A DNA stretch of 64,000 bases from Candidatus Nanoarchaeia archaeon (GCA_041651575.1 JBAZJB010000001.1:74430-138429); one strand, 5' to 3'. Positions 36,228-55,093 are shown, counted from the first letter of the stretch. The notes: a model not told the origin generated them from the sequence alone. Made by a program: numbers and translations.

Positions 36228-36279
36228 CTGTAGGTAACAACTTATAACCTTTTTAAAAGGGTTTTAAAGGAGTATAAAC

Positions 36280-36415
36280 GCCGAGAGCAGGATTTGAACC
36301 TGCACATCCTTTCGGAAACCAGCTTTCTTGCACAACCTTTCCAGGTTCGCCTTACTTCGAGGTTCGCCTTACTCTATTAGTAATCTGGCGCAATACCAGG
36401 TTATGCGATCTCGGC
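36280..36415 (-). tRNA. Intron-containing type-II tRNA gene (probably tRNA-Ser; pre-tRNA 136 nt, intron position unresolved)
   Basis: Minus-strand 7-bp acceptor stem GCCGAGA/TCTCGGC. T-arm GCAGG-TTCAAAT-CCTGC. 3-bp D-stem with 11-nt D-loop (GCA-TAACCTGGTAT-TGC) as in type-II tRNAs. Variable-arm hairpin TCC-GAAA-GGA. Discriminator G. About 50 nt of extra internal sequence. Confidence 0.55.
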
Positions 36416-36895: not shown

Positions 36896-37648
36896 TTACC
36901 ACGCCATTATTGTTATTGTTATAGACTCTAATTCTCCATTTTGTTTTAATATATAGTTTGGTATTTGTCTTACAAATACATCTGCGCTTGCAGGAGGAAT
37001 CAAATTTTGTGGGAATTTATTTTCTCCTATTTGAATACTAAATTCTTTATTTGGTGGGAAATTCCATTCTGTTTTTAAATCTTCATAATTCTTTCCAAAT
37101 AATGAATTAATTTTATCTCCACAATTTCCATCATCACATATTCCTTTAATTGTTTCAGCAATTCCATACTGATAATTTGTTATAGGAACAATACAATTAC
37201 CACTAGAACCTCCTCCAGCAATATTGAAATCTAGAGAATTAAATATAAAAAGTTCATCGTTTGTTGCAGGTAAATTTCCATTTATTAAATAAGAAGCTAT
37301 ATTAAAATTTAAATAATCTCCACTAATTGAAGAAGCTAAAATAATACTTTTGGTTTTACTATAAACTTTTGTGTTTTTATCTAGCCATTCAAATGGAAAT
37401 GTTAATTTTGCTGCAACTGGATCTCCACTACATTGCCCCCCATCTAATTTAACATTCAAAGGAACTTTGGTAATTTCCCAATTAATGTCTTTCATTAAAC
37501 CATCTTGAACTAAATCTAATAAAACAGATCCTTTATACAATGGATCAATTCCAGGTTTTAACATTACTATAACGAATAGAGTATATACCATAAATAAACC
37601 TATTGCAAGCATCCAATCTAAATGATGACCTATTGCTTTTTTATTCAT
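36896..37648 (-). CDS. Type IV pilin-like protein (start at internal Met giving 'MNKKA|IGHHLDWMLAIGLFMV')
   Basis: The internal ATG forms an ATGA overlap with the stop of the upstream gene at 37645-37647. Confidence 0.45.
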   Translation of the reverse strand: MNKKAIGHHLDWMLAIGLFMVYTLFVIVMLKPGIDPLYKGSVLLDLVQDGLMKDINWEITKVPLNVKLDGGQCSGDPVAAKLTFPFEWLDKNTKVYSKTKSIILASSISGDYLNFNIASYLINGNLPATNDELFIFNSLDFNIAGGGSSGNCIVPITNYQYGIAETIKGICDDGNCGDKINSLFGKNYEDLKTEWNFPPNKEFSIQIGENKFPQNLIPPASADVFVRQIPNYILKQNGELESITITIMAW

Positions 37649-38538
37649 ATAACACCTACTGCTATTGCTGGAGTCCATGATACTGTTGAAATAATCAAAT
37701 ATCCAACAATTACAAATATTAAACTATGTTTTACTCCATATTTTAATTCCCCTTCTGAAAATTTTCCAATTAATAATCCCGCAAATAATCCTTGTATTAA
37801 TACCATCCAAGTAAAGGTATTTGCCATAATTTTTTCATCTAATTTTGCAGTTGAACTACTTCCTAAGGAAATTCCAGGAACTCCGGAAATAGGAGAGCCA
37901 CCCATACTTAATTCTTCTCCACCTAAATTACTTATTTTTGGCATAAGATAAACTTGCATCATTAACATTATTGCAATAAATATAAAAAAGATAATGTATC
38001 CTTGTACAACTTGTGAATATACAGAAGATTTTCTTTCTTCTTTTATTTTCTTAATAGAATATACTGAATTGCTTACTGCTTGTAACACCTCTGCCATATT
38101 ACCACCTGATTTTTCTGCTTCTGTAACTATAGAAATAGATTTATTTATAACTTTATTCCTTGCATCGTTTGCAAATACTTCTAGAACATCATCTAAAGGA
38201 AAACCCCATTCTATTTGTGCAGCCATTTTTTTAACATGAGGAGTTAAAGCACCATAATCTTCTGTTGAAATTTGTATAATTGCTTTTGGAATAGGAATAC
38301 CAGATTTTACTGTTTCTACTAAGGCTCTTACAAATTCTAAGAATTTTGTTTCTATTTCTTGTTGTCTTTTGTTTTCAGCTAAAAAATCTAGGAAGAATTG
38401 TATGCCCATTACAACGAATCCAATAATTATTACAGGTTTAAACCATCTTTCATTTAAAAAATAGATAAAATTAATTATAAGAATCAATATTCCTATTATT
38501 ATAAATAAAATATGTTTTGATTGAAGTTTTATTTCCAT
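37645..38538 (-). CDS. TadC/FlaJ-like pilus platform membrane protein (half-size)
   Basis: T2SS-F-like domain with cytoplasmic helical region and 3-4 TM segments. Follows the ATPase gene. Confidence 0.5.
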   Translation of the reverse strand: MEIKLQSKHILFIIIGILILIINFIYFLNERWFKPVIIIGFVVMGIQFFLDFLAENKRQQEIETKFLEFVRALVETVKSGIPIPKAIIQISTEDYGALTPHVKKMAAQIEWGFPLDDVLEVFANDARNKVINKSISIVTEAEKSGGNMAEVLQAVSNSVYSIKKIKEERKSSVYSQVVQGYIIFFIFIAIMLMMQVYLMPKISNLGGEELSMGGSPISGVPGISLGSSSTAKLDEKIMANTFTWMVLIQGLFAGLLIGKFSEGELKYGVKHSLIFVIVGYLIISTVSWTPAIAVGVI

Positions 38539-38539
38539 T

Positions 38540-39502
38540 TTATATCTCAGTTGCTGTTAAATTAAGGAATGCTATGAAACCTACGTTTAGTATAGGTAAA
38601 ACTAAAAAGGTTCCATATTGAGCAATGACTGTTGCAGTTAATCCTCCTACTGCTCCTCCAATAACATTAATGATTGCTAAAGTTGTAATAAACAATAAAG
38701 GTGCAGCAATTAATATTCCTGTATAAATATCTGAATATGTTGCAATAGATTCTACATATTTTTGTCTTTCTAATTTGTATGTTGAAAGAGCGTCTTGTGC
38801 TTTTGTTTCTAAATATGTTTTTAAATCTCCACCTGAATTAACTGTTGATACAATTCCATTTAATAATTCTCCAAATTCTGGACTTGGGCAAGTTGATGCA
38901 ACAGATTTCAAAGCAGTGCTTAAATCATAACCAAAAATATTAATATGATTCATTATTTTTTTAAATTCTGTTTCTAATTCAGGATATTCTTTGGATTGTA
39001 TTAACAAACTGAAAATATTTATTGGTGGAGTACCTGAGCCAGCAATAGCTGCCATATGAATAATTGCAAAAGGTAGTTCTGATTTAATTTTTTTCCTTCT
39101 GCTATTAATATTTGATTTTGGATAGAAGAAAAAAAGGATTACAGTAAAAAATAGAGATAATACTCCTAAACCTAATCCATTAAGAATATTTTTTAATATA
39201 ATTGAAAATAGAATTGTTCCTACAAAAAAAGCTAAAATACTTGAAAATATCATTATACTTACATAACTTTCAGAAAGCATATTTAATCTTATTAATTTTA
39301 AAGAATTAAATAAAGGTTTGAACAATTCTGGAAATTTTCTTAGTAAAAGAAGAGTTATAGGTTCTACAAATCTATTTGATATTTTTGCAAATTGGTTTGG
39401 TTTGTATAAAGTATATGGAACTACTGCAGGTTTTGATTTTACTTTTTTATAATTTTTAGCAAATTTCTTAATATAAGGATTTATTTCAGGATTTTTTTTC
39501 AT
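38540..39502 (-). CDS. TadB/FlaJ-like pilus platform membrane protein (half-size)
   Basis: Same architecture as the adjacent platform gene and directly downstream of the ATPase. Confidence 0.5.
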   Translation of the reverse strand: MKKNPEINPYIKKFAKNYKKVKSKPAVVPYTLYKPNQFAKISNRFVEPITLLLLRKFPELFKPLFNSLKLIRLNMLSESYVSIMIFSSILAFFVGTILFSIILKNILNGLGLGVLSLFFTVILFFFYPKSNINSRRKKIKSELPFAIIHMAAIAGSGTPPINIFSLLIQSKEYPELETEFKKIMNHINIFGYDLSTALKSVASTCPSPEFGELLNGIVSTVNSGGDLKTYLETKAQDALSTYKLERQKYVESIATYSDIYTGILIAAPLLFITTLAIINVIGGAVGGLTATVIAQYGTFLVLPILNVGFIAFLNLTATEI

Positions 39503-39509
39503 ATTTCAC

Positions 39510-41111
39510 CTAAATTACGCCGAATTGCTTTAAAACTTTTTTTGGATTTCTTGCATATTCATTAATTACTGTTTGAACTTGTTTATAATCAAAAATTTTA
39601 GCTTTGTACATAGCAACTAATAGTTTCGTTCTTAATTGGAATTCTTCTAATAATCTTTCTTTACCAAATCCAAATTCTTCTGTTAATTTTTTAAAAGTAT
39701 AACTATCTGTTTTAAAGAAAAAAGTATCTGTATTAACATCCCATTTAAATGGAATATTAATTTGTGCTTGTCCTGATTCTCCTACAGAAATAATTTCTTG
39801 AATCATTTTTATTCTTCTTACATCTACATTGTTTACTTTTGCATGTCCAATAACACAAACAACATCAAGGGATTCAACTAAAGTTGCAGATAAATTAATT
39901 GGGGGGCTCTCAAGTCTTTTTATCATACTTTCTACATCATTTGCGTGCATTGTACCCATTGATGGATGTCCTGAGCTCATTCCCTGGAATAAAACGAAAG
40001 CTTCTTGTCCTCTAATTTCTCCCACAATTACATAATCTGGTCTTTGTCTGAAAGATTCTTTTAATAAATCAAATAAAGTAACTTCTCCATATTTTTGGCC
40101 AACAATATTTGCTAGACCAATACCTTCTCTAGCTACACTTGGTAACCAGTTTTCATGTTCTAAATTTAATTCTCTAGTATCTTCTATTGAAACAATTCTA
40201 GCTTGAGGTGGGATAAAAAAGGCTAATCCATTTAAGAAAGTTGTTTTACCTGAACCTGTTCCACCAATGACCATAACATTAAATTCGTGTTCAATCAAAA
40301 TCCATAGGTATGCTAAAATTTCTGGGCTTACTGTTCTCATATCAATCATTTTTACAGGGCTCCATGGCTCTTTAGTAAATTTTCTTAAAGTGAAAGTAGG
40401 TCCTTTTGAAGAAATGTCTGTTGTATAAGTTGCATTTACTCTAGATCCATCTGGCAAAGATCCATCTAAAATTGGATTTGAATAAGAAACATATCTTCCT
40501 GCTTTTTGTGCTAATTTTTCTACAAAAGAAATTAAATAAGGAAATTCATTAAATGTAATATTTGATCTTAAATTTCTATATTTTCTATGTACTATATAAA
40601 CTGGACTCTTTATTCCATTACATTCAATATCTTCTATAAAATAATCACATAATAAAGGTTCAATCTCATTCATACCTACAAAATCTCGATAAACATAATA
40701 CATTATTTTTAAAAAAGTATCATTAGAAATTTTTAATCCAAGTTCTTTTAATAAAGTTTTAATATTTCTTTCTAAATATTCAATAACTGCTTCTCCTTTT
40801 TTAATACTAATAAAACTAACATTGATGAATTCTTTTACTCCATTTTCTAATATTTTTAGAACTTCTTTTTCTCTATCATCTAATCTTGGTTCTATTACTT
40901 CATAAATAACATCGCCTTCTTTTGGATCCCAATGTATATGAACAGAAGCATAAGGTTCAATTAAAGGATATTGAATATCAATTTTTTCTTTGTTTGGAAA
41001 ATCAGGTAATACTGGAAGTTTTTCTATACGATTTATTTTGAAAAGAGTCTCTTCTTTTATAGAACTATCTACTTTTTTATCTACCTCTTTTTTTCCAAAT
41101 AACTTAAACAT
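39510..41111 (-). CDS. Type IV pilus assembly ATPase (FlaI/TadA/GspE family)
   Basis: Walker A 'GGTGSGKTT', Asp box, Walker B 'DYVIVGEIRGQEA' and His box 'GHPSMGTMHA'. Confidence 0.8.
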   Translation of the reverse strand: MFKLFGKKEVDKKVDSSIKEETLFKINRIEKLPVLPDFPNKEKIDIQYPLIEPYASVHIHWDPKEGDVIYEVIEPRLDDREKEVLKILENGVKEFINVSFISIKKGEAVIEYLERNIKTLLKELGLKISNDTFLKIMYYVYRDFVGMNEIEPLLCDYFIEDIECNGIKSPVYIVHRKYRNLRSNITFNEFPYLISFVEKLAQKAGRYVSYSNPILDGSLPDGSRVNATYTTDISSKGPTFTLRKFTKEPWSPVKMIDMRTVSPEILAYLWILIEHEFNVMVIGGTGSGKTTFLNGLAFFIPPQARIVSIEDTRELNLEHENWLPSVAREGIGLANIVGQKYGEVTLFDLLKESFRQRPDYVIVGEIRGQEAFVLFQGMSSGHPSMGTMHANDVESMIKRLESPPINLSATLVESLDVVCVIGHAKVNNVDVRRIKMIQEIISVGESGQAQINIPFKWDVNTDTFFFKTDSYTFKKLTEEFGFGKERLLEEFQLRTKLLVAMYKAKIFDYKQVQTVINEYARNPKKVLKQFGVI

Positions 41112-41184
41112 CTTACCTAATTTAATATAAAAATTGTATATATAAATAGGTTTCGAATTTAGAAAATTGGTAAAATTAGGCTTT

Positions 41185-41703
41185 TTATATGCCCTTTATT
41201 GATATTTTGCCTGCATCTTCGTTTCTTATAAGGAGATTATATTTTCCTGAAAGTGTTTTTAAATCTGTATTTAATCCTGCTAAAGCGTTGGTATAATCTA
41301 AAGTTAATGTAATTTGATATTGACTTCCTTGTTTTATTGTAGATATTTTTATATTTCCTTCTGTTATTGTTGAACCTTCTTGAGATGCAATGTATTTTGA
41401 AGGACCAGTCCAAGTTATTTTCTTTGGTGCTATTGTTGGAGGATTATCTGCTCCTGTGGTTATACTGAATTCTCCTCTTTGTATTTCAATTGAAGCTGTT
41501 CTTTGTGCTCCAGGACCTTCTCTTAAAACGTCTCTTATTGTAGAATCTATTTTATGCATAACTTCTTTTGTTTGTAAATAAGTATTTCTATCTCTCATTT
41601 TATTTATTGCTGGTGTTGTTGCCGCTAATACTACTGCAAGAATTACTACACCAAGAGCTACATAAATTACTGCTGAAATCCAAATATCTGCTTTTTTGTT
41701 CAT
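41185..41703 (-). CDS. Type IV pilin-like protein (class III signal 'MNKKA|DIWISAVIYVALGVV')
   Basis: KKA followed by a hydrophobic N-terminal helix. Confidence 0.5.
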   Translation of the reverse strand: MNKKADIWISAVIYVALGVVILAVVLAATTPAINKMRDRNTYLQTKEVMHKIDSTIRDVLREGPGAQRTASIEIQRGEFSITTGADNPPTIAPKKITWTGPSKYIASQEGSTITEGNIKISTIKQGSQYQITLTLDYTNALAGLNTDLKTLSGKYNLLIRNEDAGKISIKGI

Positions 41704-41743
41704 GTTCGTTTATATAAAAAATAAAAAAATAAAAAAAATAAAT

Positions 41744-42277
41744 TTATGCTATTGTTGCTTCTGCTGCTACTCCAACATCACAAGGTTTTGTATCTGCTCC
41801 AATTTTAACTTTTGGAACTACTAATACTTTATTTCCTGCTTTTATTATTTTACTATTTGTTAAGTTCCATTGTTGTATTGCTGCACCATTCCAACTTATG
41901 TTGGTTAGTATGTTTATATCTTTAGAACCTAAAATAGGTATAGCATTTGTATTTGTTACATCTGCATCAACTGTTATCCTTTCGGTAGTTGTTTCTATTA
42001 ATACAATTGCACCTGCAACTTCTTTTTCTGCATTATTATTTGCTATTTTTATTGTTAAATTGCTTAATGCTCCATCTACAGGTTTTTCTAAAATTGCACT
42101 AGTAATTTCTAAATTCATACCCATACAAGCAGTTTGTAAGTTTACTGTTTTTTCTTGTTCAGCTGTTAAGTTTTTAACAAAACCACCTGCCCATTGCAAG
42201 ACAACTGCAGCTAAAACTATAGTAAATCCAATTATCAAAACTGTTGCGATTAATGGACTAATTGCTTTCTTATTCAT
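41744..42277 (-). CDS. Archaeal type IV pilin (class III signal 'MNKKA|ISPLIATVLIIGFTIVLAA')
   Basis: Canonical archaeal pilin/flagellin-N-terminal-like 'ISPLIATVL' helix. Confidence 0.65.
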   Translation of the reverse strand: MNKKAISPLIATVLIIGFTIVLAAVVLQWAGGFVKNLTAEQEKTVNLQTACMGMNLEITSAILEKPVDGALSNLTIKIANNNAEKEVAGAIVLIETTTERITVDADVTNTNAIPILGSKDINILTNISWNGAAIQQWNLTNSKIIKAGNKVLVVPKVKIGADTKPCDVGVAAEATIA

Positions 42278-42302
42278 TTTTCACCTCCGTTATCATTTTT
42301 TA

Positions 42303-42731
42303 TTAAATATCAACTGTAACTTTTTTCTCAGCACAAGTTCCAGTAACTCCTTGTCTTACTATCATTGGCATAACATCTAATTTACCTGTTTTTCCTGGAA
42401 ATGTTAAAGATTTTTGTTCTCCAGGATTAAAAGATTCTTTTTCTACAAGACTTTCTCCATTACTTTGAACCATTATTCTTATGCCATTAAATAAAGCAGT
42501 TCCATCGTTTTTAATTTCAAGAACTGCATTTCCATTTATTTTTTGAGCACTTAATATAATTAATGAAATTTGAGTTGTACAATCAGTTTTAATTTCATTT
42601 AAAGCTCCATCTTTTTGCATTTGTTCTCTAATAATACTTCCATACCACATCCAAATTGCAACAGCTATTATTACAGTGAAACCAATTAGAAGTACTGTAG
42701 CAATTAATGGACTGATTGCTTTTTTATTCAT
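42303..42731 (-). CDS. Archaeal type IV pilin (start at internal 'MNKKA|ISPLIATVLLIGFTVIIAVAI')
   Basis: Same N-terminal domain. The track ORF extends 9 codons upstream to 42758. Confidence 0.6.
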   Translation of the reverse strand: MNKKAISPLIATVLLIGFTVIIAVAIWMWYGSIIREQMQKDGALNEIKTDCTTQISLIILSAQKINGNAVLEIKNDGTALFNGIRIMVQSNGESLVEKESFNPGEQKSLTFPGKTGKLDVMPMIVRQGVTGTCAEKKVTVDI

Positions 42732-42748
42732 TAAATCTTCTCTTTTTA

Positions 42749-43300
42749 TTATGGACATTTTCTAATACTCTTAATCTCCTTTAATTTAAAAACCTTTTCA
42801 TTACAAATTATATTTTTATCTTCTACATGGATTATTGGAGTAATAATTATTTCTAAAGGTTTTAAAGTTAAATCTAAATCATCATCGGTTGCATCTTCAT
42901 CATTTAAACCTGCACTTAAAGATAGAAAAGCATTTACTCCTGGATTGATAACATTAAGTTTAGTAGTTCCTTCTGAATTACTTGTAATTGAAAATTGTTC
43001 ATCTTTTTCTAATTCATCTAAATCAGTTCCTTGTTTTAGATATAGTGTAATATTTACTATGTTAAAAGAACCAGTATTTTTTAATGTAAAATTTAATATT
43101 TTGGCATCATTCAAAATTTTATAACAATCTAATTGTGCATTAATACTTGTATCTGGACAATATAAATCTGAACCTTTTTCTATATTACTTACTTGTTCTC
43201 TTGTTTGGTTTATTATATAATTAGAAACGAAAACTCCAATTACAACTGTAAATCCAACTAGCATAACATACGCAATTAATGGACTTATTGATTTTTTCAT
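42749..43300 (-). CDS. Archaeal type IV pilin ('MKKS|ISPLIAYVMLVGFTVVIGV')
   Basis: Same N-terminal domain. Confidence 0.6.
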   Translation of the reverse strand: MKKSISPLIAYVMLVGFTVVIGVFVSNYIINQTREQVSNIEKGSDLYCPDTSINAQLDCYKILNDAKILNFTLKNTGSFNIVNITLYLKQGTDLDELEKDEQFSITSNSEGTTKLNVINPGVNAFLSLSAGLNDEDATDDDLDLTLKPLEIIITPIIHVEDKNIICNEKVFKLKEIKSIRKCP

Positions 43301-43971
43301 GGTGTTTCTATTACCTGTACTTTTACATTATTGTTGTCTTCACTTTTTACTATGGCATTAAAATTTTGATTTCCTATTTTATAAAAGACTCCTGCTATTT
43401 GTAAATAAAATTGTCCAGTAGTTAAGTCTACATTTCCAGAATTTAATTCAGAACCAAAATTAGTTACTTTTGTTGGAATTGTTTTAGTAAATTTCATTCC
43501 AGCCACATCTAAACTTAATTCATTAACTGTTTTACTAGTATCAGAAAATAAACTATCTGTACAGGAGGGTTGTTCTGTAGAAGTACATATCCAAGTAATA
43601 TCTTCATTTGGGGTTGAAGATTTTTTACCTAAGAAATTACCTACTTTGAAAGTATACGCATTTTTAGTTTCTTCATCTTCTAAAGGATTGATGCTTCTAT
43701 AAACATAAACAATTCCTAAACTTGGATCAATTGATTGAGCATAATTAGTAAAATTTTTTGTAAAATCTTCTAAAGCTGTTTCTACATCCTCATTAGTTAA
43801 TATTGCTTCGTTAACAACTTTTGGTGTTTCTTCAGCATAATTAGCAGACAAATCTGGAAAATCTTCTAATAAAATTCTTTCTTCATAGGTATTTACTCTA
43901 GAAGATAATATCAAAATTACTCCACAAAGTATTACTGCTATTAAAATAAAAAATTGACCTCTTTTATTCAT
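43297..43971 (-). CDS. Pilin-like protein ('MNKRG|QFFILIAVILCGVILIL')
   Basis: KRG followed by a hydrophobic helix. First gene of the operon, with a 4-nt overlap to the next. Confidence 0.45.
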   Translation of the reverse strand: MNKRGQFFILIAVILCGVILILSSRVNTYEERILLEDFPDLSANYAEETPKVVNEAILTNEDVETALEDFTKNFTNYAQSIDPSLGIVYVYRSINPLEDEETKNAYTFKVGNFLGKKSSTPNEDITWICTSTEQPSCTDSLFSDTSKTVNELSLDVAGMKFTKTIPTKVTNFGSELNSGNVDLTTGQFYLQIAGVFYKIGNQNFNAIVKSEDNNNVKVQVIETP

Positions 43972-43986
43972 TATTATTATACTCCT

Positions 43987-44619
43987 TTAGTCCTTTAATA
44001 ATTTTTCTACGTCTTTAAAAATGACTTTAATTGGCCTTTCACCATTAACTTCTTTTATAATTCCTAATTTTTTAAAATATTTTATAATGGGGGTTTCAAA
44101 TTTCCTATAAACTTTTAATCTTTCATCTATTACACATTCATCTTCTCTAACTTGTAATTTTGTTCTATCATAATCACAAATGTTATCGTGTTTTGGTTTT
44201 AAAAATTTAATATGATACGTACGTCCGCATTTAGGACATTGTAATCTTCCTTTTAATCTTGATTTTACTGTTTTATCAGAAACTTTAATCAAAATTGCTT
44301 TGTCTATTTGATTATTCTTAATTAAATTTTTAGCTTCTTCAAATCTTCTTGGAGAACCATCCAAAACATAATTATCTTTTGGAATATTTTTTATTAATAA
44401 GTTATTTACTAATTTATGCGGTGCTAATTTTCCAGAATCTAATATTTTTTCTAATTTTTTATCTTTTCTTGCTGCTTTTCTTAAGATATTTCCAACAGTA
44501 ATTCTCTTTAAATGATACTTTTTTTCTAGAAGTTGAGCATAAGTTCCTTTTCCAGATCCAGGTGGACCTATTATTGCTAGTTTCATTTTACCTCTTTTTA
44601 ATTTAAAAGAATTATTCAA
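43987..44619 (-). CDS. adk: Adenylate kinase (long type with zinc-ribbon lid)
   Basis: 'IIGPPGSGKGT' P-loop. 'CPKCGRTYH...C.YD' lid domain. Confidence 0.8.
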   Translation of the reverse strand: MNNSFKLKRGKMKLAIIGPPGSGKGTYAQLLEKKYHLKRITVGNILRKAARKDKKLEKILDSGKLAPHKLVNNLLIKNIPKDNYVLDGSPRRFEEAKNLIKNNQIDKAILIKVSDKTVKSRLKGRLQCPKCGRTYHIKFLKPKHDNICDYDRTKLQVREDECVIDERLKVYRKFETPIIKYFKKLGIIKEVNGERPIKVIFKDVEKLLKD

Positions 44620-44634
44620 TTATATAGTTTTCTA

Positions 44635-45114
44635 TTAACCGAAGTATTGGACTTTCTCTTTTTTCTCTGAGGATTCCCAACCTTTTATCAATTTTTCAAA
44701 TATTTTTTTAATTTTGTCTTTATTATCATTCCAATCTTGGTAAAATTCTTTTATGAATTTGGCATTTTCTTCTTCTTTTGATTCTATTTCTAAGGAAGCA
44801 GATCTCCTTTCAAATATCATCATATGACTTAATAATTTTGAAATGTTTTCTTTTTCTACTTCATCAAAGAAATTATTTTGTTTAATAGAAACAATAACTC
44901 CTGGATTTGGCATTAAAACTGCCTGTAAGTTATTACAAACAAAAATTAATTTTTCACTCATTCTTCTTCTTATAACATCTAATAAAAACTTTTCATTTAC
45001 ATTTTCTAGATTAACATTAGATAATTCGAATTCCTTGTCCAAACTATTAAAATCTGATAAACTATACTTTGTTTTGTATTTACTATATTCTTTTTCTAAG
45101 TTTGTTTTTTCCAT
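44635..45114 (-). CDS. Hypothetical protein
   Basis: ORF only. Confidence 0.25.
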   Translation of the reverse strand: MEKTNLEKEYSKYKTKYSLSDFNSLDKEFELSNVNLENVNEKFLLDVIRRRMSEKLIFVCNNLQAVLMPNPGVIVSIKQNNFFDEVEKENISKLLSHMMIFERRSASLEIESKEEENAKFIKEFYQDWNDNKDKIKKIFEKLIKGWESSEKKEKVQYFG

Positions 45115-45128
45115 TTTAAAGGATTATA

Positions 45129-45223
45129 AGCCCCGACCGGGAATTGAACCCGGGACCTCTTCCTTACCAAGGAACTGAGCAGTTTTCATCAAACTAGTGC
45201 TCTACCGACTGAGCCATCGGGGC
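45129..45223 (-). tRNA. tRNA-Thr(GGU) with 22-nt non-canonical intron (between positions 27 and 28)
   Basis: Minus strand. Acceptor GCCCCGA/TCGGGGC. D-arm GCTC-AGTCGGTA-GAGC. T-arm CCGGG-TTCAATT-CCCGG. Anticodon arm C|TTCC-TTGGTAA-GGAAG after removing TAGTTTGATGAAAACTGCTCAG, leaving a mature length of 73 nt. Confidence 0.55.
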
Positions 45224-45853
45224 GCTTTTAATAAAATCTACCTTCTCTTTATTTTTTAAAGGTATGTATTTTAATATTTTATAGAAATCCTTTTTATGTA
45301 TATAAATCTGATGGTAAACATGATTATTATACTTCCAAGGGCAAGAATGATAAGAAAATTTAAATTGTTTAAACATATTATCACAAAATTTAGCTAAATA
45401 TTTACTTGCTGTAGAAAGCCCAAAACCACTTCCCTTTTTACCTCCGTCTGTATCTAATAATCCTGTAAGTAATGGGGCATAATACTTTTTTGGTAAATTT
45501 GGAATTTTAGCAATTTTTGCTTTTTTACCGGTGGTAATTCCTTTATTTTTTAAGAATAAGTATATCTTTTTGGATTCTATTGGGCAATTATATAAAATTT
45601 TTCTATCTTTCTTTTTTCTAATTTCTAATCGCGGATTTATATTAAATAATCTAACAAATAGAGGAATGTATACTTCTTTACAGAAATTTAAAGAATTACA
45701 GAAAAAATAAATAAGGTGTCTTTTCTGTATTTTTCCATTTGGTCTTTTTGTAAATGCTTTAGGTAAACTTCCGTCCCCTAAAATTAAACCACAAAAATAA
45801 GCTAAATCATTATTCCATCTTTTTGGTAAAATTATATTTTTATTTATGCTCAT
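45194..45853 (-). CDS. LAGLIDADG-family homing endonuclease-like protein (free-standing)
   Basis: Two LAGLIDADG motifs 'LAYFCGLILGDGSL' and 'LLTGLLDTDGGKK' about 110 aa apart. The last 10 codons read into the tRNA-Thr 5' end, so the true C-terminus is uncertain. Confidence 0.55.
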   Translation of the reverse strand: MSINKNIILPKRWNNDLAYFCGLILGDGSLPKAFTKRPNGKIQKRHLIYFFCNSLNFCKEVYIPLFVRLFNINPRLEIRKKKDRKILYNCPIESKKIYLFLKNKGITTGKKAKIAKIPNLPKKYYAPLLTGLLDTDGGKKGSGFGLSTASKYLAKFCDNMFKQFKFSYHSCPWKYNNHVYHQIYIHKKDFYKILKYIPLKNKEKVDFIKSAPMAQSVEH

Positions 45854-45962
45854 ACCACTATGGTGCTTTTTTTATTTATAAATCTCACGCACACCCGTTT
45901 GCAAGTTGCAATTTGTTGTAATATATATTTTGTAGAATATACTTTTTATAAGAAAAAATAAG

Positions 45963-46046
45963 TGTGGGAGAAGGGATTTGAACCCTCGCAAGCACTAAGC
46001 TACTGGATCTTAAGTCCAGCGCATTTGACCGCTCTGCCACTCCCAC
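45963..46046 (-). tRNA. tRNA-Leu(UAA)
   Basis: Minus strand. GTGGGAG/CTCCCAC acceptor. 3-bp D-stem with 11-nt D-loop. Anticodon arm CTGGA-CTTAAGA-TCCAG. Long variable arm. T-arm GAGGG-TTCAAAT-CCCTT. Discriminator A. Confidence 0.75.
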
Positions 46047-46084
46047 ATAATCCAAAAAAGAACTAAAATTACTTATAAATATTG

Positions 46085-46579
46085 CTATTTATTGATTATA
46101 TTTAACCCTATTATTTTCTTATTTTTAATATCAAATACTAATAATTCAGAAGGAAATTCTTTGTTTTTTAAACCTGTTAATGTTGCTAGTTTTTCAGCTT
46201 TTAAGGTATCTATTACTATAGAACCAGGATATTCGGCTTTTGCTATGTTTTTTGCTATTTTTATTTTATGTTCTTCTATACTTTTGAATTTTAATAATTC
46301 TCCTTTGTAAACTTTTTTTAAGCATTCTGCTTCTATTTTTATTATCTCTTTTCTTGTCTTTGGTTTTTTCTTTTTTTCCATAGATACTTTTAATTTAGCA
46401 TAATATTCAACTATTTTTGTTATTTTGTTTATTTCTTCTTTTTTTAATCTAATGAATTTTAACCATTTTGTTCTTGCTGGAGAATTTAGAAATATTAACA
46501 ATACTTTCTGATCTATTAAGAATTCCCTTGCATCGCTTGGAGATTCTTGTTTTAATTTAGAAAAACTAACCTCTTTCAT
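46085..46579 (-). CDS. Hypothetical Lys-rich protein
   Basis: ORF only. Confidence 0.25.
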   Translation of the reverse strand: MKEVSFSKLKQESPSDAREFLIDQKVLLIFLNSPARTKWLKFIRLKKEEINKITKIVEYYAKLKVSMEKKKKPKTRKEIIKIEAECLKKVYKGELLKFKSIEEHKIKIAKNIAKAEYPGSIVIDTLKAEKLATLTGLKNKEFPSELLVFDIKNKKIIGLNIINK

Positions 46580-50449: not shown

Positions 50450-53400
50450 ATGCATAAAAAGAGGGTAAGAGATACTTTTTACTTTTATACTTCTAAAAGA
50501 GAAAAAGGAAAAGTCAAAAGCGTTTACTTAGGTACTAATTTCTTATCTGCAAAGAAAAGAGAACTAGAGTTACAATTTAATAAGTTTAGTATACTACAAA
50601 CAAAATATGTATTAATGCTTTTAATTTTAGTACTTTTATTATCTGGATTTTATTTTATGGGAAATTATACTGGATTATTTATTTCTAATGAAACAGGAGA
50701 AACTTTTGTAAATGAAACTGAAGGTATTACTTTAACTGAACCTTCAAATGTTTCTGAAACCATAGCAGAAACTAATATAACAGAAATACCTGAAGAAATA
50801 ATTCTTGTAGAAGAGATTATAATCCCAGAAGAAGAACCAGAAGAAAGTTTTACCTTACAAGATTTAATTTTAAATAGGGGCAATGGACTACAAACTAATT
50901 TTACAGGAATAACTCCTGCAAATAATTCAATTCAATCAAACACAAATATATTTGTGAATGTTTCAAGCAGTGATGATGGAGATCATTATACTTTTTTGGA
51001 TTTTGATAGAGATTTGGCTTTATGGATGACAATGGATGATGTAAATGCTTCAACAGAGCCAACTGATTTATCAATATATAGCAACAATGGAAGCAGACAA
51101 GGAAACGCAGCACAATCTGCTTCTGGACATTTTGGAAAATCATTTAGTTTTGATGGTACTGGAGATTTTGTTGCTATAAAAAATGCAAATATTCTTAATC
51201 CGGCAGATAGATTAACTATTTCTGCTTGGATATATGCAAATGAATGGGAAACAAACCGTTGGGAAGGAACAATTGTTGGAAAAGATGATTGGGCAGATGG
51301 AAATGCTAATGGTTATGTATTAAGAACAGGAGATAATGGTAGACTTTCTTTTGCATTTGGAAAGGGGGCAGCAGGATGGTCAGAAATACTTTCAGATCAA
51401 ATAATGGCCATAGGAACTTGGTATCATGTTGTTGTAGTATTAAACAATACAAATATGAGTTTATTCATAAATGGAACAATTAAAAAAAGTGCATCTTTAC
51501 CAAGTGTAACAACTATAAACCCCTCTTCATATGCTTTAGATATAGGTAGAAGTACTTTTGCTACAGATAGATTATTCAATGGATTGATAGATGAAGTTTT
51601 AATTTTTAATAGAAGTTTATCTGATCAGGAAGTTTATGCCTTGTTCAATGCTTCATCAAATAATTATTATAATAATTTTACTAATCTTATTCTAGGAACT
51701 CATACATTTACTGCTTATTCTGTTAATAGTTCTGGAGTAAAAAATCAAACAGAACAAAGAATTGTAAGAATTATAGAAGAAGCAAATAGGCCTGCAATAG
51801 ATTTTGTTGATCCTACTCCAGGAAATGGAGCAAATACTTCAAACACTTCTGTTGAGATTAATGTTTCAATAGCTGAACAGAATTTAAATTCTTTAATTTA
51901 TAATTGGAATGGAACTAATTTTACTCTCTATGATAATACTTTGGTTCTAAGATATAATTTTGATAATAGAAGTGTATTAGGAGAAAATTCAACTTATGTT
52001 ATGGATATGAGCAATTATAGTAGCAATGGTAGTTTAATTGGTCCTCCAAATTTTATTACAGCTGGACGTTATGGTTTAGGATTAAACTTTTCTGGAAATG
52101 CTCAATATATTAATATAACTGATAACCCTAGAATAGATGTTACCAATAATTTTACATATTCTGCATGGATTAATCCTGTAGGTTATAATGCTTGTCAAGG
52201 AATTATTAGTAAATATCATGTAGGTTGGGGAAATGGGCCTACCTTTAGATTAAAATGTGCTGAACCTTATAATACAATTGATTTTAATGAATTAGTTTCA
52301 ACAAAAGTTATTGATTTGAATACTTGGACTCATGTTGTTGGAATTATTAAAGATGGAGTGGCATATGTTTATGTAAATGGAGTGTTAGATGCTTCTGGAG
52401 CTCCAGGATATGCCGTTTTAGATAATGCTCAACCATTAATGATAGGAGTAGATTTCTTTGTTAGTCCAAGATATTGGAATGGTTCTCTTGATGAGATAAA
52501 AATATGGAATAGAAGTTTAACTGCAGAAGAAGTTTATCAAGATTATGTTTCAAATTTATACAAATTTAATTCTACACAATGGTATTTTTATATAAATCAA
52601 TCACAGAATGCTACAACTAATTTAGGTTATGGAAATTATACTTATCAAGTTTTTGCAGAGGATAAATTTACACTTTCAAATCAAACAGGACAAAAATTAA
52701 TTAATCTAAATAATAATATCCCTACTTTTTTTAATATAACTTTTTTTGATAATGTAACAACTAGTTCATATGGAAAAGCAAAACAATTTAATGGTTCTGT
52801 GGCTATTGGGGATTTAGATTCTGGACAAAAATTAAATATTTCCTTTTTTTGGTATGAACAAGATTCTATAATCATCTCTAATAATACTGCAGGTTCTAAT
52901 ATGAGTAATATTACTAATGGAATAAATGGAACGATGTATTACACAACACAAAATTTAACTGCATTAAATTACAAGCTGGGTTATAATTACTCTTTAGGAA
53001 TTTACGTTTGTGATGGATTTGGATGTAATCAATCCAATTCAACTAGATTATTCATTAATAATACATTGCCTTTCTTTAGAAATATTACTTTATATGATAA
53101 TGTAACAACCACTTCTATAGGGAAGGGTTATTCATTTAATGCTTCAACTTTTATAGAAGATGCTGATAATGATAAATTAAACATTTCATTTTACTGGTTA
53201 AAAATAAATCCATATTCTATAATAAAAACTTCAACAAATAATGCAAATCAAAACATTACTAATGGAAATAATGGAACAGAATATTATTCTAGTATTAATT
53301 TAACTTATTCTGATTATGAATTAGGATTTAATTATACTTTTTTAGTTCAGGTTTGTGACAATTTATATTGTAATACTAGTAATTGGTCAACAAGTATATT

Positions 53401-55093
53401 ATTTATTAACAATTCTATGCCTACAAATGTTTCCTTATTTACTCCAAATAATGATTCAATAACAGGAACTAATAATACCAATTATAGTTGGTATAGTTCT
53501 GTAGATTTAGATGAAGATATACTAAATTATATCTTAGAAATTGATGATGATATTAATTTTGAATCTATAGATTATTATTCAGATTATATCGGTAATTCAA
53601 CTATAATAAGTAATAAATCTCAACAATTAACAGATGGAGTGTATTATTGGAGAATTATTACTACAGATAATTATTCTAATTCAACAGTATCAGATATAAG
53701 AAAATTAACTATAGATACAACAAGTCCTAATTTAACTATATTATACCCTATGAATAATTCAGGATTTTATGGTAATGTTACTATAAATCTAAATATAACA
53801 GATAGGAATAATATAACTAATTGTACTTTAAATTTAAACAATCTATTAAATATAACAGAAATATCAATAATAAAAAACATTACAACCAATATTTCATTAT
53901 ACAATCTAAATATATCTAAATATAATTATACTATAAATTGTACAGATGTAGCAAATAATACTATTTTAAGTGAATTAAGACAATTTTCAATAATCTATAC
54001 AACCTCTTTTTCTGGTGAGACCACTAATATGAGTGCTGTTAATGTATCAAATATATCAGATTTGACAGTAGAAACTTCTTCTAAAGGAAAATTAGTCTTT
54101 AAAGAAAATATAGATTTAAGCAATGGAACAGATTTAAGTTCTTACATAACCATTTCTTCAAATTACATAGAAATTAATTCAACAGCCTATCCTGAATTAA
54201 ATAAATCTGCTAATATTACTTTATATGGAATTACCTATTCCAATCCAGAACCATTAAGAAATGGTTTGACTTGTCCAACAACAATTTGTCAAGAAATAAG
54301 TTATTCTGGAAACGTATTTGTATTTAATGTAACTCAATTTACAAGTTATTCTGCAGGAGAAACCGCAGTGTCTGGTGGACCTGGTGGCGGAGCAGCAGGT
54401 GGTGGCGGAGGCGGTGGAGCTGTAAAAGAAAAAGTAACTTATGAATGTACTAAAAATAGTGATTGTTCAGAAGGGTATACTTGTTATGGAACTAAATGTG
54501 TAAAATTATTCGACGTAAAGATATTAGAAATTCAATCTCCAATTACTTCAACAGGATTCTTTGATTTAACTTATTATATAAAAGGAATGGCAAATATTAA
54601 TGGAGATGTAATTATAAAATTTTATCTAGATAAAAATGGAAATATAACAGAACTTGGAAAAGATACAGTTTACTTTGGAAACTTTGAAGAAAAAACAGAA
54701 AAAACAAAGTTATTCTTACCAAGTTATCTAGAAGGAGTATACGACTTTAATGTAGAAGCACAATTTGAAGATTATTCTGCTAGCTCTTTCAGAAAGATAG
54801 AAATAATAAAGAAAGAAAATAAAACAGAAATTCTAGAAAATGGAAAACCAATAGAAATGTCTAGTTATGAATACTTTAGATATTCTGTCTGGCCTATACT
54901 AAAAATAATAATATATACATTAATTATTATTGCAATAGTTTTCCTTGGAATAAAATTACTAACTAAAAAAAGAATTAAAAACATAAAGAAAAAGTTCTTA
55001 AAAAGATTACATAGAAAATACAATAAAAAATTAAAAGTGTTTAAAAAGAAATTAAAACGCTTAATAACCAAGTATATAACTTCTAAACTCTAA
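50450..55093 (+). CDS. Giant (1547 aa) cell-surface protein with two LamG/concanavalin-A-like lectin domains, tandem Asn-rich modules, Gly linker, C-terminal TM anchor and Lys-rich tail
   Basis: LamG_3-like blocks ('LTISAWIYANEW…GLIDEVLIFNRSLSDQEVYALF' and 'FTYSAWINPVGY…GSLDEIKIWNRSLTAEEVYQDY'). Two roughly 115-aa repeated modules. 'GGPGGGAAGGGGGGGA' linker. TM 'ILKIIIYTLIIIAIVFLGIKLL' followed by a K-rich tail. Very dense N-x-S/T sequons. Confidence 0.6.
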   Translation: MHKKRVRDTFYFYTSKREKGKVKSVYLGTNFLSAKKRELELQFNKFSILQTKYVLMLLILVLLLSGFYFMGNYTGLFISNETGETFVNETEGITLTEPSNVSETIAETNITEIPEEIILVEEIIIPEEEPEESFTLQDLILNRGNGLQTNFTGITPANNSIQSNTNIFVNVSSSDDGDHYTFLDFDRDLALWMTMDDVNASTEPTDLSIYSNNGSRQGNAAQSASGHFGKSFSFDGTGDFVAIKNANILNPADRLTISAWIYANEWETNRWEGTIVGKDDWADGNANGYVLRTGDNGRLSFAFGKGAAGWSEILSDQIMAIGTWYHVVVVLNNTNMSLFINGTIKKSASLPSVTTINPSSYALDIGRSTFATDRLFNGLIDEVLIFNRSLSDQEVYALFNASSNNYYNNFTNLILGTHTFTAYSVNSSGVKNQTEQRIVRIIEEANRPAIDFVDPTPGNGANTSNTSVEINVSIAEQNLNSLIYNWNGTNFTLYDNTLVLRYNFDNRSVLGENSTYVMDMSNYSSNGSLIGPPNFITAGRYGLGLNFSGNAQYINITDNPRIDVTNNFTYSAWINPVGYNACQGIISKYHVGWGNGPTFRLKCAEPYNTIDFNELVSTKVIDLNTWTHVVGIIKDGVAYVYVNGVLDASGAPGYAVLDNAQPLMIGVDFFVSPRYWNGSLDEIKIWNRSLTAEEVYQDYVSNLYKFNSTQWYFYINQSQNATTNLGYGNYTYQVFAEDKFTLSNQTGQKLINLNNNIPTFFNITFFDNVTTSSYGKAKQFNGSVAIGDLDSGQKLNISFFWYEQDSIIISNNTAGSNMSNITNGINGTMYYTTQNLTALNYKLGYNYSLGIYVCDGFGCNQSNSTRLFINNTLPFFRNITLYDNVTTTSIGKGYSFNASTFIEDADNDKLNISFYWLKINPYSIIKTSTNNANQNITNGNNGTEYYSSINLTYSDYELGFNYTFLVQVCDNLYCNTSNWSTSILFINNSMPTNVSLFTPNNDSITGTNNTNYSWYSSVDLDEDILNYILEIDDDINFESIDYYSDYIGNSTIISNKSQQLTDGVYYWRIITTDNYSNSTVSDIRKLTIDTTSPNLTILYPMNNSGFYGNVTINLNITDRNNITNCTLNLNNLLNITEISIIKNITTNISLYNLNISKYNYTINCTDVANNTILSELRQFSIIYTTSFSGETTNMSAVNVSNISDLTVETSSKGKLVFKENIDLSNGTDLSSYITISSNYIEINSTAYPELNKSANITLYGITYSNPEPLRNGLTCPTTICQEISYSGNVFVFNVTQFTSYSAGETAVSGGPGGGAAGGGGGGGAVKEKVTYECTKNSDCSEGYTCYGTKCVKLFDVKILEIQSPITSTGFFDLTYYIKGMANINGDVIIKFYLDKNGNITELGKDTVYFGNFEEKTEKTKLFLPSYLEGVYDFNVEAQFEDYSASSFRKIEIIKKENKTEILENGKPIEMSSYEYFRYSVWPILKIIIYTLIIIAIVFLGIKLLTKKRIKNIKKKFLKRLHRKYNKKLKVFKKKLKRLITKYITSKL

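What the first reader, a model, noticed from the sequence alone, without database searches (positions are those of the whole stretch)
45194..45853. Free-standing LAGLIDADG endonuclease ORF wedged between tRNA-Thr and tRNA-Leu, reading into the tRNA 5' end
This two-motif LAGLIDADG protein (LAYFCGLILGDGSL … LLTGLLDTDGGKK) is normally intron- or intein-encoded in archaea, but here it is not inside an rRNA, tRNA intron or host protein. Its 3' end overlaps the first 30 nt of tRNA-Thr, so the last residues (…APMAQSVEH) are encoded by tRNA sequence. It could be a domesticated or free-standing homing endonuclease. It could also be the remnant of a mobile intron whose insertion is related to the unusual tRNA intron next door, or a splicing-related factor.
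Basis: partly seen in the sequence, partly recalled or inferred. Interest (0 to 1): 0.6.

Follow-up and report, generated by a model that had tools for sequence, protein, structure and literature searches.

The report
Homing endonuclease gene welded to tRNA-Thr
[quoted passage not shown] It looks like a selfish gene that travels together with its tRNA, an arrangement I could not find described in the literature.

Summary
Window 45194-45853 (-) is an intact 219-codon ORF with two LAGLIDADG motifs. It hits Pfam LAGLIDADG_3, and its confident model (pLDDT 91) matches I-DmoI. Its last 30 nt lie inside tRNA-Thr(GGU), which carries a 22-nt intron at position 27/28.

The overlap is a family trait, not chance. 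In 50 of 54 distinct related loci (47-72% identical; Nanoarchaeia and Aenigmatarchaeota) tRNA-Thr(GGU) follows the conserved protein end (49 within -5..+7 nt). In 46 of these the ORF stops inside the tRNA.

Upstream of the ATG lie a conserved TATA box and a fossil of tRNA-Thr positions about 20-37. The start codon falls on A37, the canonical intron site. The four exceptional loci carry a complete tRNA-Thr on the other side plus a 5' or 3' tRNA-Thr fragment.

The protein is under strong purifying selection (dN/dS 0.08-0.22) yet is dispensable. Five of five related contigs keep the tRNA-Thr/neighbour-gene pair without it. One near-isogenic pair (flanks 92-98.5% identical) differs only by the cassette.

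More distant LAGLIDADG subfamilies abut tRNA-Leu, tRNA-Met and tRNA-Ser genes in the same way.

Best reading: a free-standing homing endonuclease, probably descended from a tRNA-intron ORF, that is inherited and probably moves as an endonuclease-plus-tRNA cassette. DNA cleavage and the target site are inferred, not shown.

The parts
45194..45853 (-). LAGLIDADG homing endonuclease ORF, 219 codons plus stop. The conserved core is residues 1-210 (45224-45853). Residues 211-219 and the stop codon (45194-45223) are tRNA sequence.
45764..45805 (-). LAGLIDADG motif 1 (LAYFCGLILGDGSL, residues 17-30). D27 is invariant in the family and aligns with D21 of I-DmoI.
45440..45472 (-). LAGLIDADG motif 2 (LLTGLLDTDGG, residues 128-138). 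D134, T135, G137 and G138 are invariant; D136 is conserved in at least 90% of sequences.
45129..45223 (-). tRNA-Thr(GGU) gene, 95 nt. Exon 1 is 45197-45223, the intron is 45175-45196 (22 nt, between positions 27 and 28), exon 2 is 45129-45174. The anticodon GGT is at 45166-45168.
45854..45869 (-). Fossil of the tRNA-Thr 5' half (AAAGCACCATAGTGGT, corresponding to tRNA positions about 22-36), directly upstream of the ATG. The A of the ATG corresponds to A37.
   Evidence: Longer fossils occur in L034, L079, L013, L039, L019 and L011.
45873..45882 (-). TATA box (TTTATAAATA) centred about 25 nt upstream of the ATG. It is the promoter for a leaderless or near-leaderless endonuclease mRNA.
   Evidence: One search shows a positional peak at -26..-22 in 56% of 54 loci.
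45248..45260 (-). TATA-like run TTTAAAAAATAAA inside codons 198-202 (IPLKNK motif), 25-37 nt upstream of tRNA +1. It is a possible internal promoter for tRNA-Thr, but this is weakly supported.
   Evidence: One search finds a strict match at this position in only about 12% of relatives.
45963..46046 (-). tRNA-Leu(UAA), the upstream neighbour. It is shared by the closest relatives but is not part of the cassette.
44635..45114 (-). 159-aa conserved hypothetical gene. It is the ancestral neighbour of tRNA-Thr(GGU) in Nanoarchaeota and was used as the anchor to find sites without the endonuclease.

Best explanation
The ORF is a functional, free-standing, monomeric two-domain LAGLIDADG homing endonuclease gene of the I-DmoI type. 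It forms one genetic unit with the tRNA-Thr(GGU) gene immediately downstream.

Shown:
- The fold and the active-site residues.
- Strong purifying selection on the protein.
- Obligatory abutment to tRNA-Thr(GGU) across the family.
- Its own conserved promoter, built into a fossil of the tRNA-Thr 5' half that ends at position 37.
- Presence/absence polymorphism at an otherwise conserved chromosomal site.
- Occasional frameshifted copies.

Inferred:
- The ancestor was an ORF carried in an intron or insertion at the canonical 37/38 site of tRNA-Thr(GGU). A partial duplication then placed an uninterrupted tRNA copy next to it, so the host keeps a working tRNA without having to splice out 650 nt.
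- The enzyme cuts tRNA-Thr(GGU) alleles that lack it. Double-strand-break repair then copies the endonuclease together with the adjacent tRNA (cassette homing). The conserved tRNA sequence on both sides serves as homology.
- The missing stop codon (the ORF stops at the first in-frame stop inside the tRNA) is a by-product of zero spacing.
- tRNA-Thr is either co-transcribed with the ORF and released by RNase P, or transcribed from a weak TATA-like run inside the ORF.
For: Protein:
- Pfam LAGLIDADG_3 hit.
- Model with pLDDT 91. Foldseek matches to an intein endonuclease domain and to I-DmoI, E about 1e-9, TM 0.6-0.7.
- D27 aligns with the catalytic D21 of I-DmoI.
- Both motif acidic residues are conserved.
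- dN/dS is 0.08-0.22 in about 30 close pairs.

Linkage:
- tRNA-Thr(GGU) follows the conserved protein end in 50 of 54 distinct loci, in 49 of them within -5..+7 nt of residue 210. The ORF ends inside the tRNA in 46 of those 50.
- The four exceptions are L011 and L071 (complete tRNA, ORF, 3' fragment), L072 (complete tRNA, ORF, 15-nt repeat of the tRNA 3' end) and L039 (5' half fragment, ORF).

Fossil:
- The motif [GA]AG[CT][GA]-N5-7-T[GA]GTA lies just upstream of the ATG (directly abutting it in most, 20-35 nt away in L009, L019 and L039) in 33 of 55 distinct upstream regions, with the same spacing as tRNA positions 22-26 and 33-37.
- Long 5' fragments (positions 1-26) occur in L034 (z = 7.3), L079 and L013.

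Promoter:
- TATA-like octamers peak at -26..-22 from the ATG.

Dispensable or mobile:
- Only 21 loci among 185,579 GTDB species representatives.
- Five of five contigs carrying the neighbour gene have tRNA-Thr(GGU) on the same contig (directly adjacent in four, about 1.4 kb away in L097) but no endonuclease gene.
- L006 and L096 have flanks 92-98.5% identical. L096 holds 150 nt with an intronless tRNA-Thr. L006 holds 877 nt with fossil, ORF and a different, intron-bearing tRNA-Thr.
- Frameshifted copies L021/L076 and L074.

Generality:
- Distant subfamilies read into tRNA-Leu(CAG), tRNA-Leu(UAG) (with an upstream 5' tRNA fragment in L090), tRNA-Met(CAU) and class II tRNAs.
Against: - No cleavage site is known.
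- About half of the resident tRNA-Thr genes have no intron. One of them (L016) has the same anticodon arm as the endonuclease-less L096 tRNA, so how the host copy escapes cutting is unexplained.
- The endonuclease tree separates an Aenigmatarchaeota-like group from the Nanoarchaeia. Pairwise endonuclease identity also tracks neighbour-gene identity (r = 0.77). Both are as expected for mostly vertical descent.
- In the L006/L096 pair the tRNA is inverted between the alleles, so this is a replacement and not a simple homing product.
- In most single loci the upstream fossil is too short to be significant on its own (z < 2).
- Nothing was found in viral contigs that could act as a vector.
Confidence: 0.6

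Rival explanations
1. Domesticated LAGLIDADG protein. It would be a DNA- or RNA-binding factor kept by the host for expression, processing or protection of tRNA-Thr, for example a maturase-like helper for the intron-bearing pre-tRNA, or a regulator.
For: - Strong purifying selection.
- The protein is more conserved than the neighbouring host gene: 47-65% against 26-43% identity.
- The tree follows host groups.
- The linkage to one tRNA is ancient.
Against: - It is absent from 5 of 5 related contigs and from a near-isogenic genome that keeps tRNA-Thr.
- It occurs in only about 21 GTDB species.
- Frameshifted copies exist.
- The catalytic residues are retained.
- Half of the linked tRNAs have no intron to mature.
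Confidence: 0.15
2. Stranded relic. It would be a formerly mobile intron ORF that no longer homes, is inherited vertically with tRNA-Thr and is being lost lineage by lineage.
For: - The correlation with neighbour divergence.
- The phylum-level structure of the tree.
- The tRNA fossils.
- Some decayed copies.
Against: - A dN/dS of about 0.1 over deep divergence is not expected for a functionless relic.
- The promoter and active site are conserved.
- The L006 cassette carries a tRNA-Thr quite unlike that of its near-isogenic partner, which points to recent import of the whole cassette.
Confidence: 0.17
3. Cargo or scar of an integrase-type element (pNOB8 or SSV type) that integrated into tRNA-Thr. 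This is the explanation proposed for the similar Caldiarchaeum locus.
For: - Direct repeats of tRNA parts flank the ORF (L072, L011, L071).
- The layout is the same as in PMC3293823.
Against: - No integrase is present, and no other element gene, in any of about 60 loci. The unit is a single ORF of 0.66 kb.
- The ORF is a LAGLIDADG nuclease and not a recombinase.
- There are no relatives in viral contigs.
Confidence: 0.04
4. Chance adjacency in a compact genome, with the overlap being an ORF-calling artefact.
For: The genome is AT-rich and compact. The nine tail residues are not conserved.
Against: The same junction occurs in 50 of 54 loci across two phyla, and other subfamilies show it with other tRNAs.
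Confidence: 0.01

Closest known systems
I-DmoI and other archaeal intron-encoded LAGLIDADG endonucleases (I-PorI, I-Tsp061I)
   Same: Monomeric two-motif LAGLIDADG fold. They are the best structural matches. They are archaeal, and this family probably also descends from an ORF in an archaeal-type intron.
   Different: Those enzymes sit inside rRNA introns. This one lies outside any intron, abuts a complete tRNA gene, has its own promoter, and shares only about 19% sequence identity.
Free-standing homing endonucleases of T-even phages, especially SegB in the T4 tRNA gene cluster (from my own knowledge; SegB is mentioned in PMC13096335)
   Same: A free-standing endonuclease gene placed next to tRNA genes. 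Inheritance is proposed to occur by co-conversion of flanking tRNA DNA (intronless homing).
   Different: SegB is a GIY-YIG enzyme in a phage. It has no ORF-tRNA overlap, no tRNA fossils and no fixed one-to-one pairing with a single tRNA.
Collaborative homing (free-standing F-CphI beside the intron-containing psbA gene of cyanophages; from my own knowledge)
   Same: A free-standing endonuclease gene next to a target gene, where an intron could shield the resident copy.
   Different: About half of the tRNA-Thr genes here have no intron. The introns are of the archaeal BHB-like type, and the link between intron and immunity is untested.
Caldiarchaeum subterraneum tRNA-Thr(GGU) locus heterogeneity (Sugahara et al. 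2012, PMC3293823)
   Same: The same tRNA and the same layout: a 5' tRNA-Thr fragment, then an insertion whose ORF lies immediately upstream of a complete tRNA-Thr on the same strand, with that tRNA carrying an extra intron near position 24/25. It also shows presence/absence within a population.
   Different: That insertion is 1.8 kb and contains a repeated element. Its ORF b (813 bp) was called a putative recombinase from a machine-learning classifier, and the event was attributed to a pNOB8-type integrase. Whether ORF b is a LAGLIDADG protein was never tested, and I could not test it here.
Integrative elements that target archaeal tRNA genes (SSV or pNOB8 type)
   Same: They leave direct repeats of part of a tRNA and regenerate a functional tRNA.
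   Different: They use tyrosine recombinases and are kilobases long. Here a single nuclease ORF is the whole element.

Membership tests
LAGLIDADG endonuclease superfamily (Pfam PF14528 LAGLIDADG_3) | Profile match above the curated cut-off | tested here: met
   39.2 bits against a cut-off of 22.5, E = 8.7e-10.
LAGLIDADG endonuclease superfamily (Pfam PF14528 LAGLIDADG_3) | Two LAGLIDADG helices, each ending in an acidic catalytic residue (monomeric two-domain type) | tested here: met
   GLILGDG (D27, invariant) and LLDTDGG (D134 invariant; D136 conserved in at least 90%). D27 aligns with D21 of I-DmoI.
LAGLIDADG endonuclease superfamily (Pfam PF14528 LAGLIDADG_3) | Alpha-beta-beta-alpha-beta-beta-alpha fold repeated twice | tested here: met
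   pLDDT 91, pTM 0.88. Foldseek probability 1.00 to I-DmoI, PI-PfuI and the TliVMA endonuclease domain.
LAGLIDADG endonuclease superfamily (Pfam PF14528 LAGLIDADG_3) | Site-specific double-strand DNA cleavage | not testable with these tools
   Needs an in vitro assay.
Mobile (homing) endonuclease gene | Presence/absence polymorphism at a conserved site in related genomes | tested here: met
   L006 against L096 with flanks 92-98.5% identical. Five of five neighbour-gene contigs lack it.
Mobile (homing) endonuclease gene | Sporadic distribution with intact and decayed copies | tested here: met
   21 GTDB species loci. Frameshifted copies L021/L076 and L074.
Mobile (homing) endonuclease gene | The enzyme cuts the empty allele, and its own insertion or allele is immune | not testable with these tools
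   The target is unknown. Introns occur in 20 of 36 linked tRNA-Thr genes against 8 of 30 other tRNAs, which is only suggestive.
Mobile (homing) endonuclease gene | Phylogeny incongruent with the host (horizontal transfer) | tested here: inconclusive
   The tree follows the major host groups and neighbour-gene divergence. However, the L006 cassette tRNA differs strongly from the tRNA of its near-isogenic partner.
Intron-encoded endonuclease (archaeal BHB intron) | The ORF lies between two exons of one RNA gene with a splice motif at the junctions | tested here: not met
   A complete tRNA-Thr lies downstream and only a 16-nt fossil upstream. The layout closest to ORF-in-tRNA is seen only in L011 and L071, and it is broken there.
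Group I or group II intron ORF | A ribozyme core around the ORF | tested here: not met
   No Rfam intron family was found even at E <= 1 in 44900-46150.
Intein endonuclease domain | In-frame insertion in a host protein with splicing blocks | tested here: not met
   The ORF has its own start and promoter and no flanking extein. The only NCBIfam hit is a 12-bit match to the intein region of a V-ATPase.
Integrase-type tRNA-integrating element | A tyrosine recombinase gene and att repeats bounding a multi-gene element | tested here: not met
   The unit is a single ORF and the flanks are housekeeping genes. Repeats of tRNA parts are present.

The most novel reading that the evidence does not exclude
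A large superfamily of archaeal LAGLIDADG endonucleases is specialised on tRNA genes. Each subfamily is tied to one tRNA (Thr-GGU, Leu-CAG, Leu-UAG, Met-CAU, Ser) and spreads as an endonuclease-plus-tRNA cassette that overwrites the resident tRNA gene. These elements would then be a main cause of the tRNA fragments, duplicated halves and unusually frequent, oddly placed introns of DPANN tRNA genes. The introns would persist because they split the endonuclease target site. This would give a concrete agent for the long-standing idea that disrupted tRNA genes are a defence against mobile elements.
Probability: 0.3. Interest if true: 0.8.

Novelty: new variant of a known kind. Interest (0 to 1): 0.62.

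Why it matters
Homing endonucleases are normally discussed as passengers of introns and inteins, or as free-standing phage genes. Here an archaeal chromosomal family is fused end-to-end to a tRNA gene. It carries a fossil of that tRNA as its promoter region and is polymorphic between near-identical genomes.

If the enzyme does cut tRNA-Thr genes, three things follow:
- It is a natural gene drive that carries a replacement tRNA.
- It gives a testable mechanism for how archaeal tRNA genes become fragmented and intron-rich, including the unexplained Caldiarchaeum tRNA-Thr(GGU) case.
- It offers a set of compact endonucleases with conserved 20-bp-class targets.

There is also a practical point for annotation. 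Many gene callers extend these ORFs into tRNA genes, and ARAGORN in bacterial mode mislabels the intron-bearing tRNA.

Tried and rejected
- **Neighbour-gene search.** A single-sequence search with the 159-aa neighbour found only itself. A profile of 13 syntenic homologues was needed.
- **Per-locus fossil test.** Smith-Waterman comparison of the upstream region with the downstream tRNA was mostly not significant. The fossil is convincing only as a family-wide motif plus a few long remnants.
- **Internal tRNA promoter.** The idea that the conserved IPLKNK codons encode the tRNA's TATA box holds for the window but not for the family. Only about 12% have a strict TATA-like octamer there. I therefore downgraded it and added co-transcription as an alternative.
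- **Canonical BHB fold of the 27/28 intron.** This was not obtained. The local fold gives helix GAGCA/UGCUC, a 3-nt bulge containing the 5' splice site and a 4-bp hairpin, which is a relaxed BHB-like motif at best.
- **Other sources excluded.** Group I or II intron, viral origin and intein were all rejected.
- **Artefacts.** L080 is a chimeric contig and was discarded. A first regular expression for tRNA starts failed and was corrected.
- **Literature.** Searches found no description of archaeal LAGLIDADG genes linked to tRNA genes. The library is limited to open-access papers.
- **Taxonomy of distant subfamilies.** This could not be obtained.

Full report
**Observation**

The minus-strand ORF 45194-45853 encodes 219 residues. 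It matches Pfam LAGLIDADG_3 with E = 8.7e-10, 39.2 bits against a cut-off of 22.5. It has weak sequence matches to I-DmoI.

An AlphaFold model built on 34 homologues is confident: pLDDT 91, pTM 0.88. It matches the endonuclease domain of the TliVMA intein, I-DmoI, PI-PfuI and I-SceI with Foldseek E down to 7e-10. The first motif, GLILGDG, aligns with GLI(I/W)GDG of I-DmoI, so D27 corresponds to D21.

Rfam finds three tRNAs in the window:
- 45129-45223(-).
- 45963-46046(-).
- 36279-36415(-).

ARAGORN in bacterial mode calls the first of these His. After deleting the 22 nt at 45175-45196 it folds as a clean tRNA-Thr(GGU). The intron lies between positions 27 and 28. The ORF ends 30 nt inside this tRNA. 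No group I or group II intron is detectable around the ORF. The window is identical to a contig of the MAG Candidatus Nanoarchaeia archaeon STD1_207.

**The family and its junction with tRNA-Thr**

A protein search gave 107 clusters at 47-72% identity, nearly all 208-230 aa long. They come from Pacearchaeota, Woesearchaeota, Nanoarchaeia and Aenigmatarchaeota MAGs. Many end in peptides such as ASVAQLVEH, ASVAQW or CPGSSVGRA, which are translated tRNA 5' ends in different frames.

I fetched 21 loci from GTDB species representatives and 63 from metagenomes. Among 54 distinct loci with enough downstream sequence:
- 50 have tRNA-Thr(GGU) downstream of the conserved protein end.
- In 49 of these the tRNA starts between -5 and +7 nt from the codon aligned with residue 210. 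In one it starts at +63.
- The ORF, stop codon included, runs 10-99 nt into the tRNA in 46 of the 50.

The 30-nt overlap in the window is therefore a family trait. The nine tail residues are not conserved and model poorly. The protein effectively ends at residue 210, and the stop codon is simply the first one met inside the tRNA.

An exhaustive profile search shows the family is a tight, isolated group. It collapses into one 50%-identity cluster at 347 bits, followed by a gap down to about 117 bits.

**A tRNA fossil upstream**

Upstream regions aligned at the ATG show two conserved features:
- A TATA box. TATA-like octamers peak sharply at -26..-22 in 56% of 54 loci.
- Between the TATA box and the ATG, the motif (T)AGAGCG-YTATAG-TGGTA-TG.

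GAGCG and TGGTA have exactly the spacing of tRNA-Thr positions 22-26 and 33-37, and the A of the start codon falls on A37. In the window the fossil reads AAAGCACCATAGTGGT|ATG, and the resident tRNA also has AGCAC.

Longer fossils survive elsewhere:
- L034 has GCCTCTGTGGCTCAGTTGGTAGAGCG (positions 1-26, z = 7.3).
- L079 and L013 have similar pieces.
- L039 has a 5' half with a D-loop deletion.
- L019 has GTAGAGCGTTGTAGTGGTAAGGAC.

The four loci that break the main rule are informative:
- L011 and L071 have a complete tRNA-Thr upstream, then the ORF, then a 3' tRNA-Thr fragment (positions about 39/44-73).
- L072 has a complete tRNA-Thr, the ORF, and a 15-nt repeat of the tRNA 3' end.
- L039 has the tRNA on the other strand.

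All of these layouts can be derived from one ancestor: an ORF sitting at the 37/38 site of tRNA-Thr, next to or fused with an uninterrupted copy. In most single loci the fossil is too short to be significant alone. The argument rests on the family-wide motif and the long remnants.

**Functional but dispensable**

dN/dS in about 30 close pairs is 0.08-0.22. The protein is more conserved than the adjacent 159-aa host gene, at 47-65% against 26-43% identity. Endonuclease and neighbour identities are correlated (r = 0.77). An NJ tree separates an Aenigmatarchaeota-like group from the Nanoarchaeia. Inheritance is therefore largely vertical where the gene is present.

Yet the gene is rare and dispensable:
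- The near-invariant peptides DTDGGKKG and GL..GDGS.P found only 21 loci among 185,579 species representatives.
- A few copies are frameshifted: L021/L076 and L074.
- Using a profile of the neighbour gene, I examined five long contigs. All five have tRNA-Thr(GGU) on the same contig as the neighbour gene (directly adjacent in four, about 1.4 kb away in L097), and none has the endonuclease.

One of these contigs, L096, is nearly isogenic with the endonuclease-bearing L006. The neighbour protein is 98.7% identical and the flanks are 92-98.5% identical at the DNA level. Between the flanks, L096 has 150 nt holding an intronless tRNA-Thr. L006 has 877 nt holding fossil, ORF and a clearly different tRNA-Thr with a 54-nt intron, in the opposite orientation.

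This shows that the endonuclease and its tRNA behave as one replaceable cassette. It does not show how the exchange happened.

**Introns**

Counted from Rfam hit lengths, 20 of 36 endonuclease-linked tRNA-Thr genes carry one or two introns, at about 27/28 and/or 37/38. This compares with 8 of 30 other tRNAs in the same loci. The sequences are not phylogenetically independent, so this is only suggestive.

Three other points bear on the introns:
- Endonuclease-less tRNA-Thr(GGU) genes also often have 37/38 introns of 74, 63 and 11 nt.
- L032 and L033 differ only by a 43-nt intron.
- The window's intron folds locally as helix GAGCA/UGCUC, a 3-nt bulge with the 5' splice site, and a 4-bp hairpin. 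This is a relaxed BHB-like motif shared by its closest relatives.

Introns could shield the resident tRNA from the enzyme. However, intronless resident tRNAs are common, and one (L016) has the same anticodon arm as the empty L096 allele. Immunity is therefore unexplained.

**Expression**

The conserved TATA box about 25 nt upstream of the ATG predicts a leaderless mRNA.

In the window, a TATA-like run (TTTAAAAAATAAA) lies 25-37 nt upstream of tRNA +1, inside the IPLKNK codons. That spacing is similar to the TATA box of the neighbouring tRNA-Leu. Strict matches at this position are rare in relatives (about 12%). Co-transcription with the ORF followed by RNase P processing is therefore at least as likely. 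That processing would remove the stop codon from the mRNA. Neither route is shown.

**A wider pattern**

More distant LAGLIDADG proteins (25-32% identical, often with an N-terminal extension of 100-130 residues) show the same layout with other tRNAs:
- Iainarchaeia/Diapherotrites loci read into tRNA-Leu(CAG).
- P0126 reads into tRNA-Leu(UAG), with a class II tRNA 5' fragment about 120 nt upstream of its ATG.
- P0125 reads into an intron-bearing tRNA-Met(CAU).
- P0134, P0129 and P0121 read into class II tRNAs.

Among 126 further relatives, 25 C-terminal tails can be back-translated to the tRNA position 8-19 pattern, against 9 internal control peptides. This is an underestimate, because many ORFs stop earlier.

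**Comparison with what is known**

- The fold and chemistry are those of I-DmoI-type archaeal enzymes.
- The lifestyle resembles free-standing phage endonucleases such as SegB in the T4 tRNA cluster, and collaborative homing next to an intron. Both comparisons rest on my own knowledge.
- The closest published layout is the tRNA-Thr(GGU) locus of Caldiarchaeum subterraneum. There, a 5' tRNA fragment is followed by a 1.8-kb insertion whose ORF lies immediately upstream of a complete tRNA-Thr with an extra intron. The locus is polymorphic within a population and was attributed to an integrase-type element (PMC3293823). Whether that ORF is a LAGLIDADG protein is unknown.

I found no paper describing archaeal LAGLIDADG genes fused to tRNA genes. 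The library holds open-access papers only.

**Verdict**

The finding is real. It is a free-standing LAGLIDADG homing endonuclease gene of a discrete DPANN family that is physically and evolutionarily tied to tRNA-Thr(GGU).

Shown:
- Fold, selection and linkage.
- The tRNA fossil.
- Dispensability and cassette replacement.

Inferred:
- Origin from an intron at 37/38.
- Cleavage of tRNA-Thr alleles.
- Spread by repair-mediated copying.

It is a new variant of a known kind.

Noticed in passing
window 36279-36415 (-): A third tRNA of 137 nt (Rfam 38.8 bits), so it has about 60 nt of intron sequence. ARAGORN missed it. No LAGLIDADG ORF precedes it; the upstream ORF stops 41 nt before the tRNA.
   Followed up: partly
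L032 3623-3738 versus L033 (same gene and flanks): Two contigs with the same endonuclease and flanks differ only by the presence or absence of a 43-nt intron at 37/38 of tRNA-Thr(GGU). This is a recent intron gain or loss.
   Followed up: partly
L012 1952-2347 (-): A second LAGLIDADG paralogue, 35% identical, lies 1.6 kb upstream of the tRNA-Thr-linked copy in a Pacearchaeota MAG.
   Followed up: no
L058 about 2020-2084: The first 10 nt of tRNA-Thr (GCCTCGATA..) are duplicated, and about 53 nt are inserted between the ORF end and the tRNA. This is the only locus with a spacer.
   Followed up: no
window 44635-45114 (-) and L095-L099: A 159-aa gene family without any Pfam domain (more than 215 clusters) is syntenic with tRNA-Thr(GGU) across Nanoarchaeota, on either side, with or without the endonuclease. 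Its function is unknown.
   Followed up: partly
L006 4743-4799: About 48 nt downstream of the cassette tRNA there is a second copy of its 3' end (CTGAGGCTT). This may be a scar of the replaced tRNA.
   Followed up: no
L095, L097, L099: tRNA-Thr(GGU) genes without the endonuclease still carry introns of 74, 11 and 63 nt at 37/38, the same site where the endonuclease fossil ends. They could be decayed remains of ORF-bearing introns.
   Followed up: no
L008 and L018 (motif 2): The second catalytic position is N (DTNGG) in L008 and Y (DTYGG) in L018. These two enzymes may be nickases or inactive.
   Followed up: no
window 37645-44586 (-): Downstream of the locus lies a type IV pilus or archaellum-like cluster (T2SSE ATPase, two T2SSF proteins, pilin-N proteins) and an adenylate kinase. 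A 1547-aa Laminin_G_3 protein lies at 50450-55093.
   Followed up: no
L080: The contig switches from AT-rich archaeal endonuclease sequence to GC-rich sequence after residue 74. It is probably an assembly chimera and was excluded.
   Followed up: yes
L016 (CAYIKF010000047.1): The GTDB record is titled 'uncultured Gammaproteobacteria bacterium', but the contig carries the archaeal endonuclease/tRNA-Thr/159-aa gene trio. The bin is probably contaminated or mislabelled.
   Followed up: no
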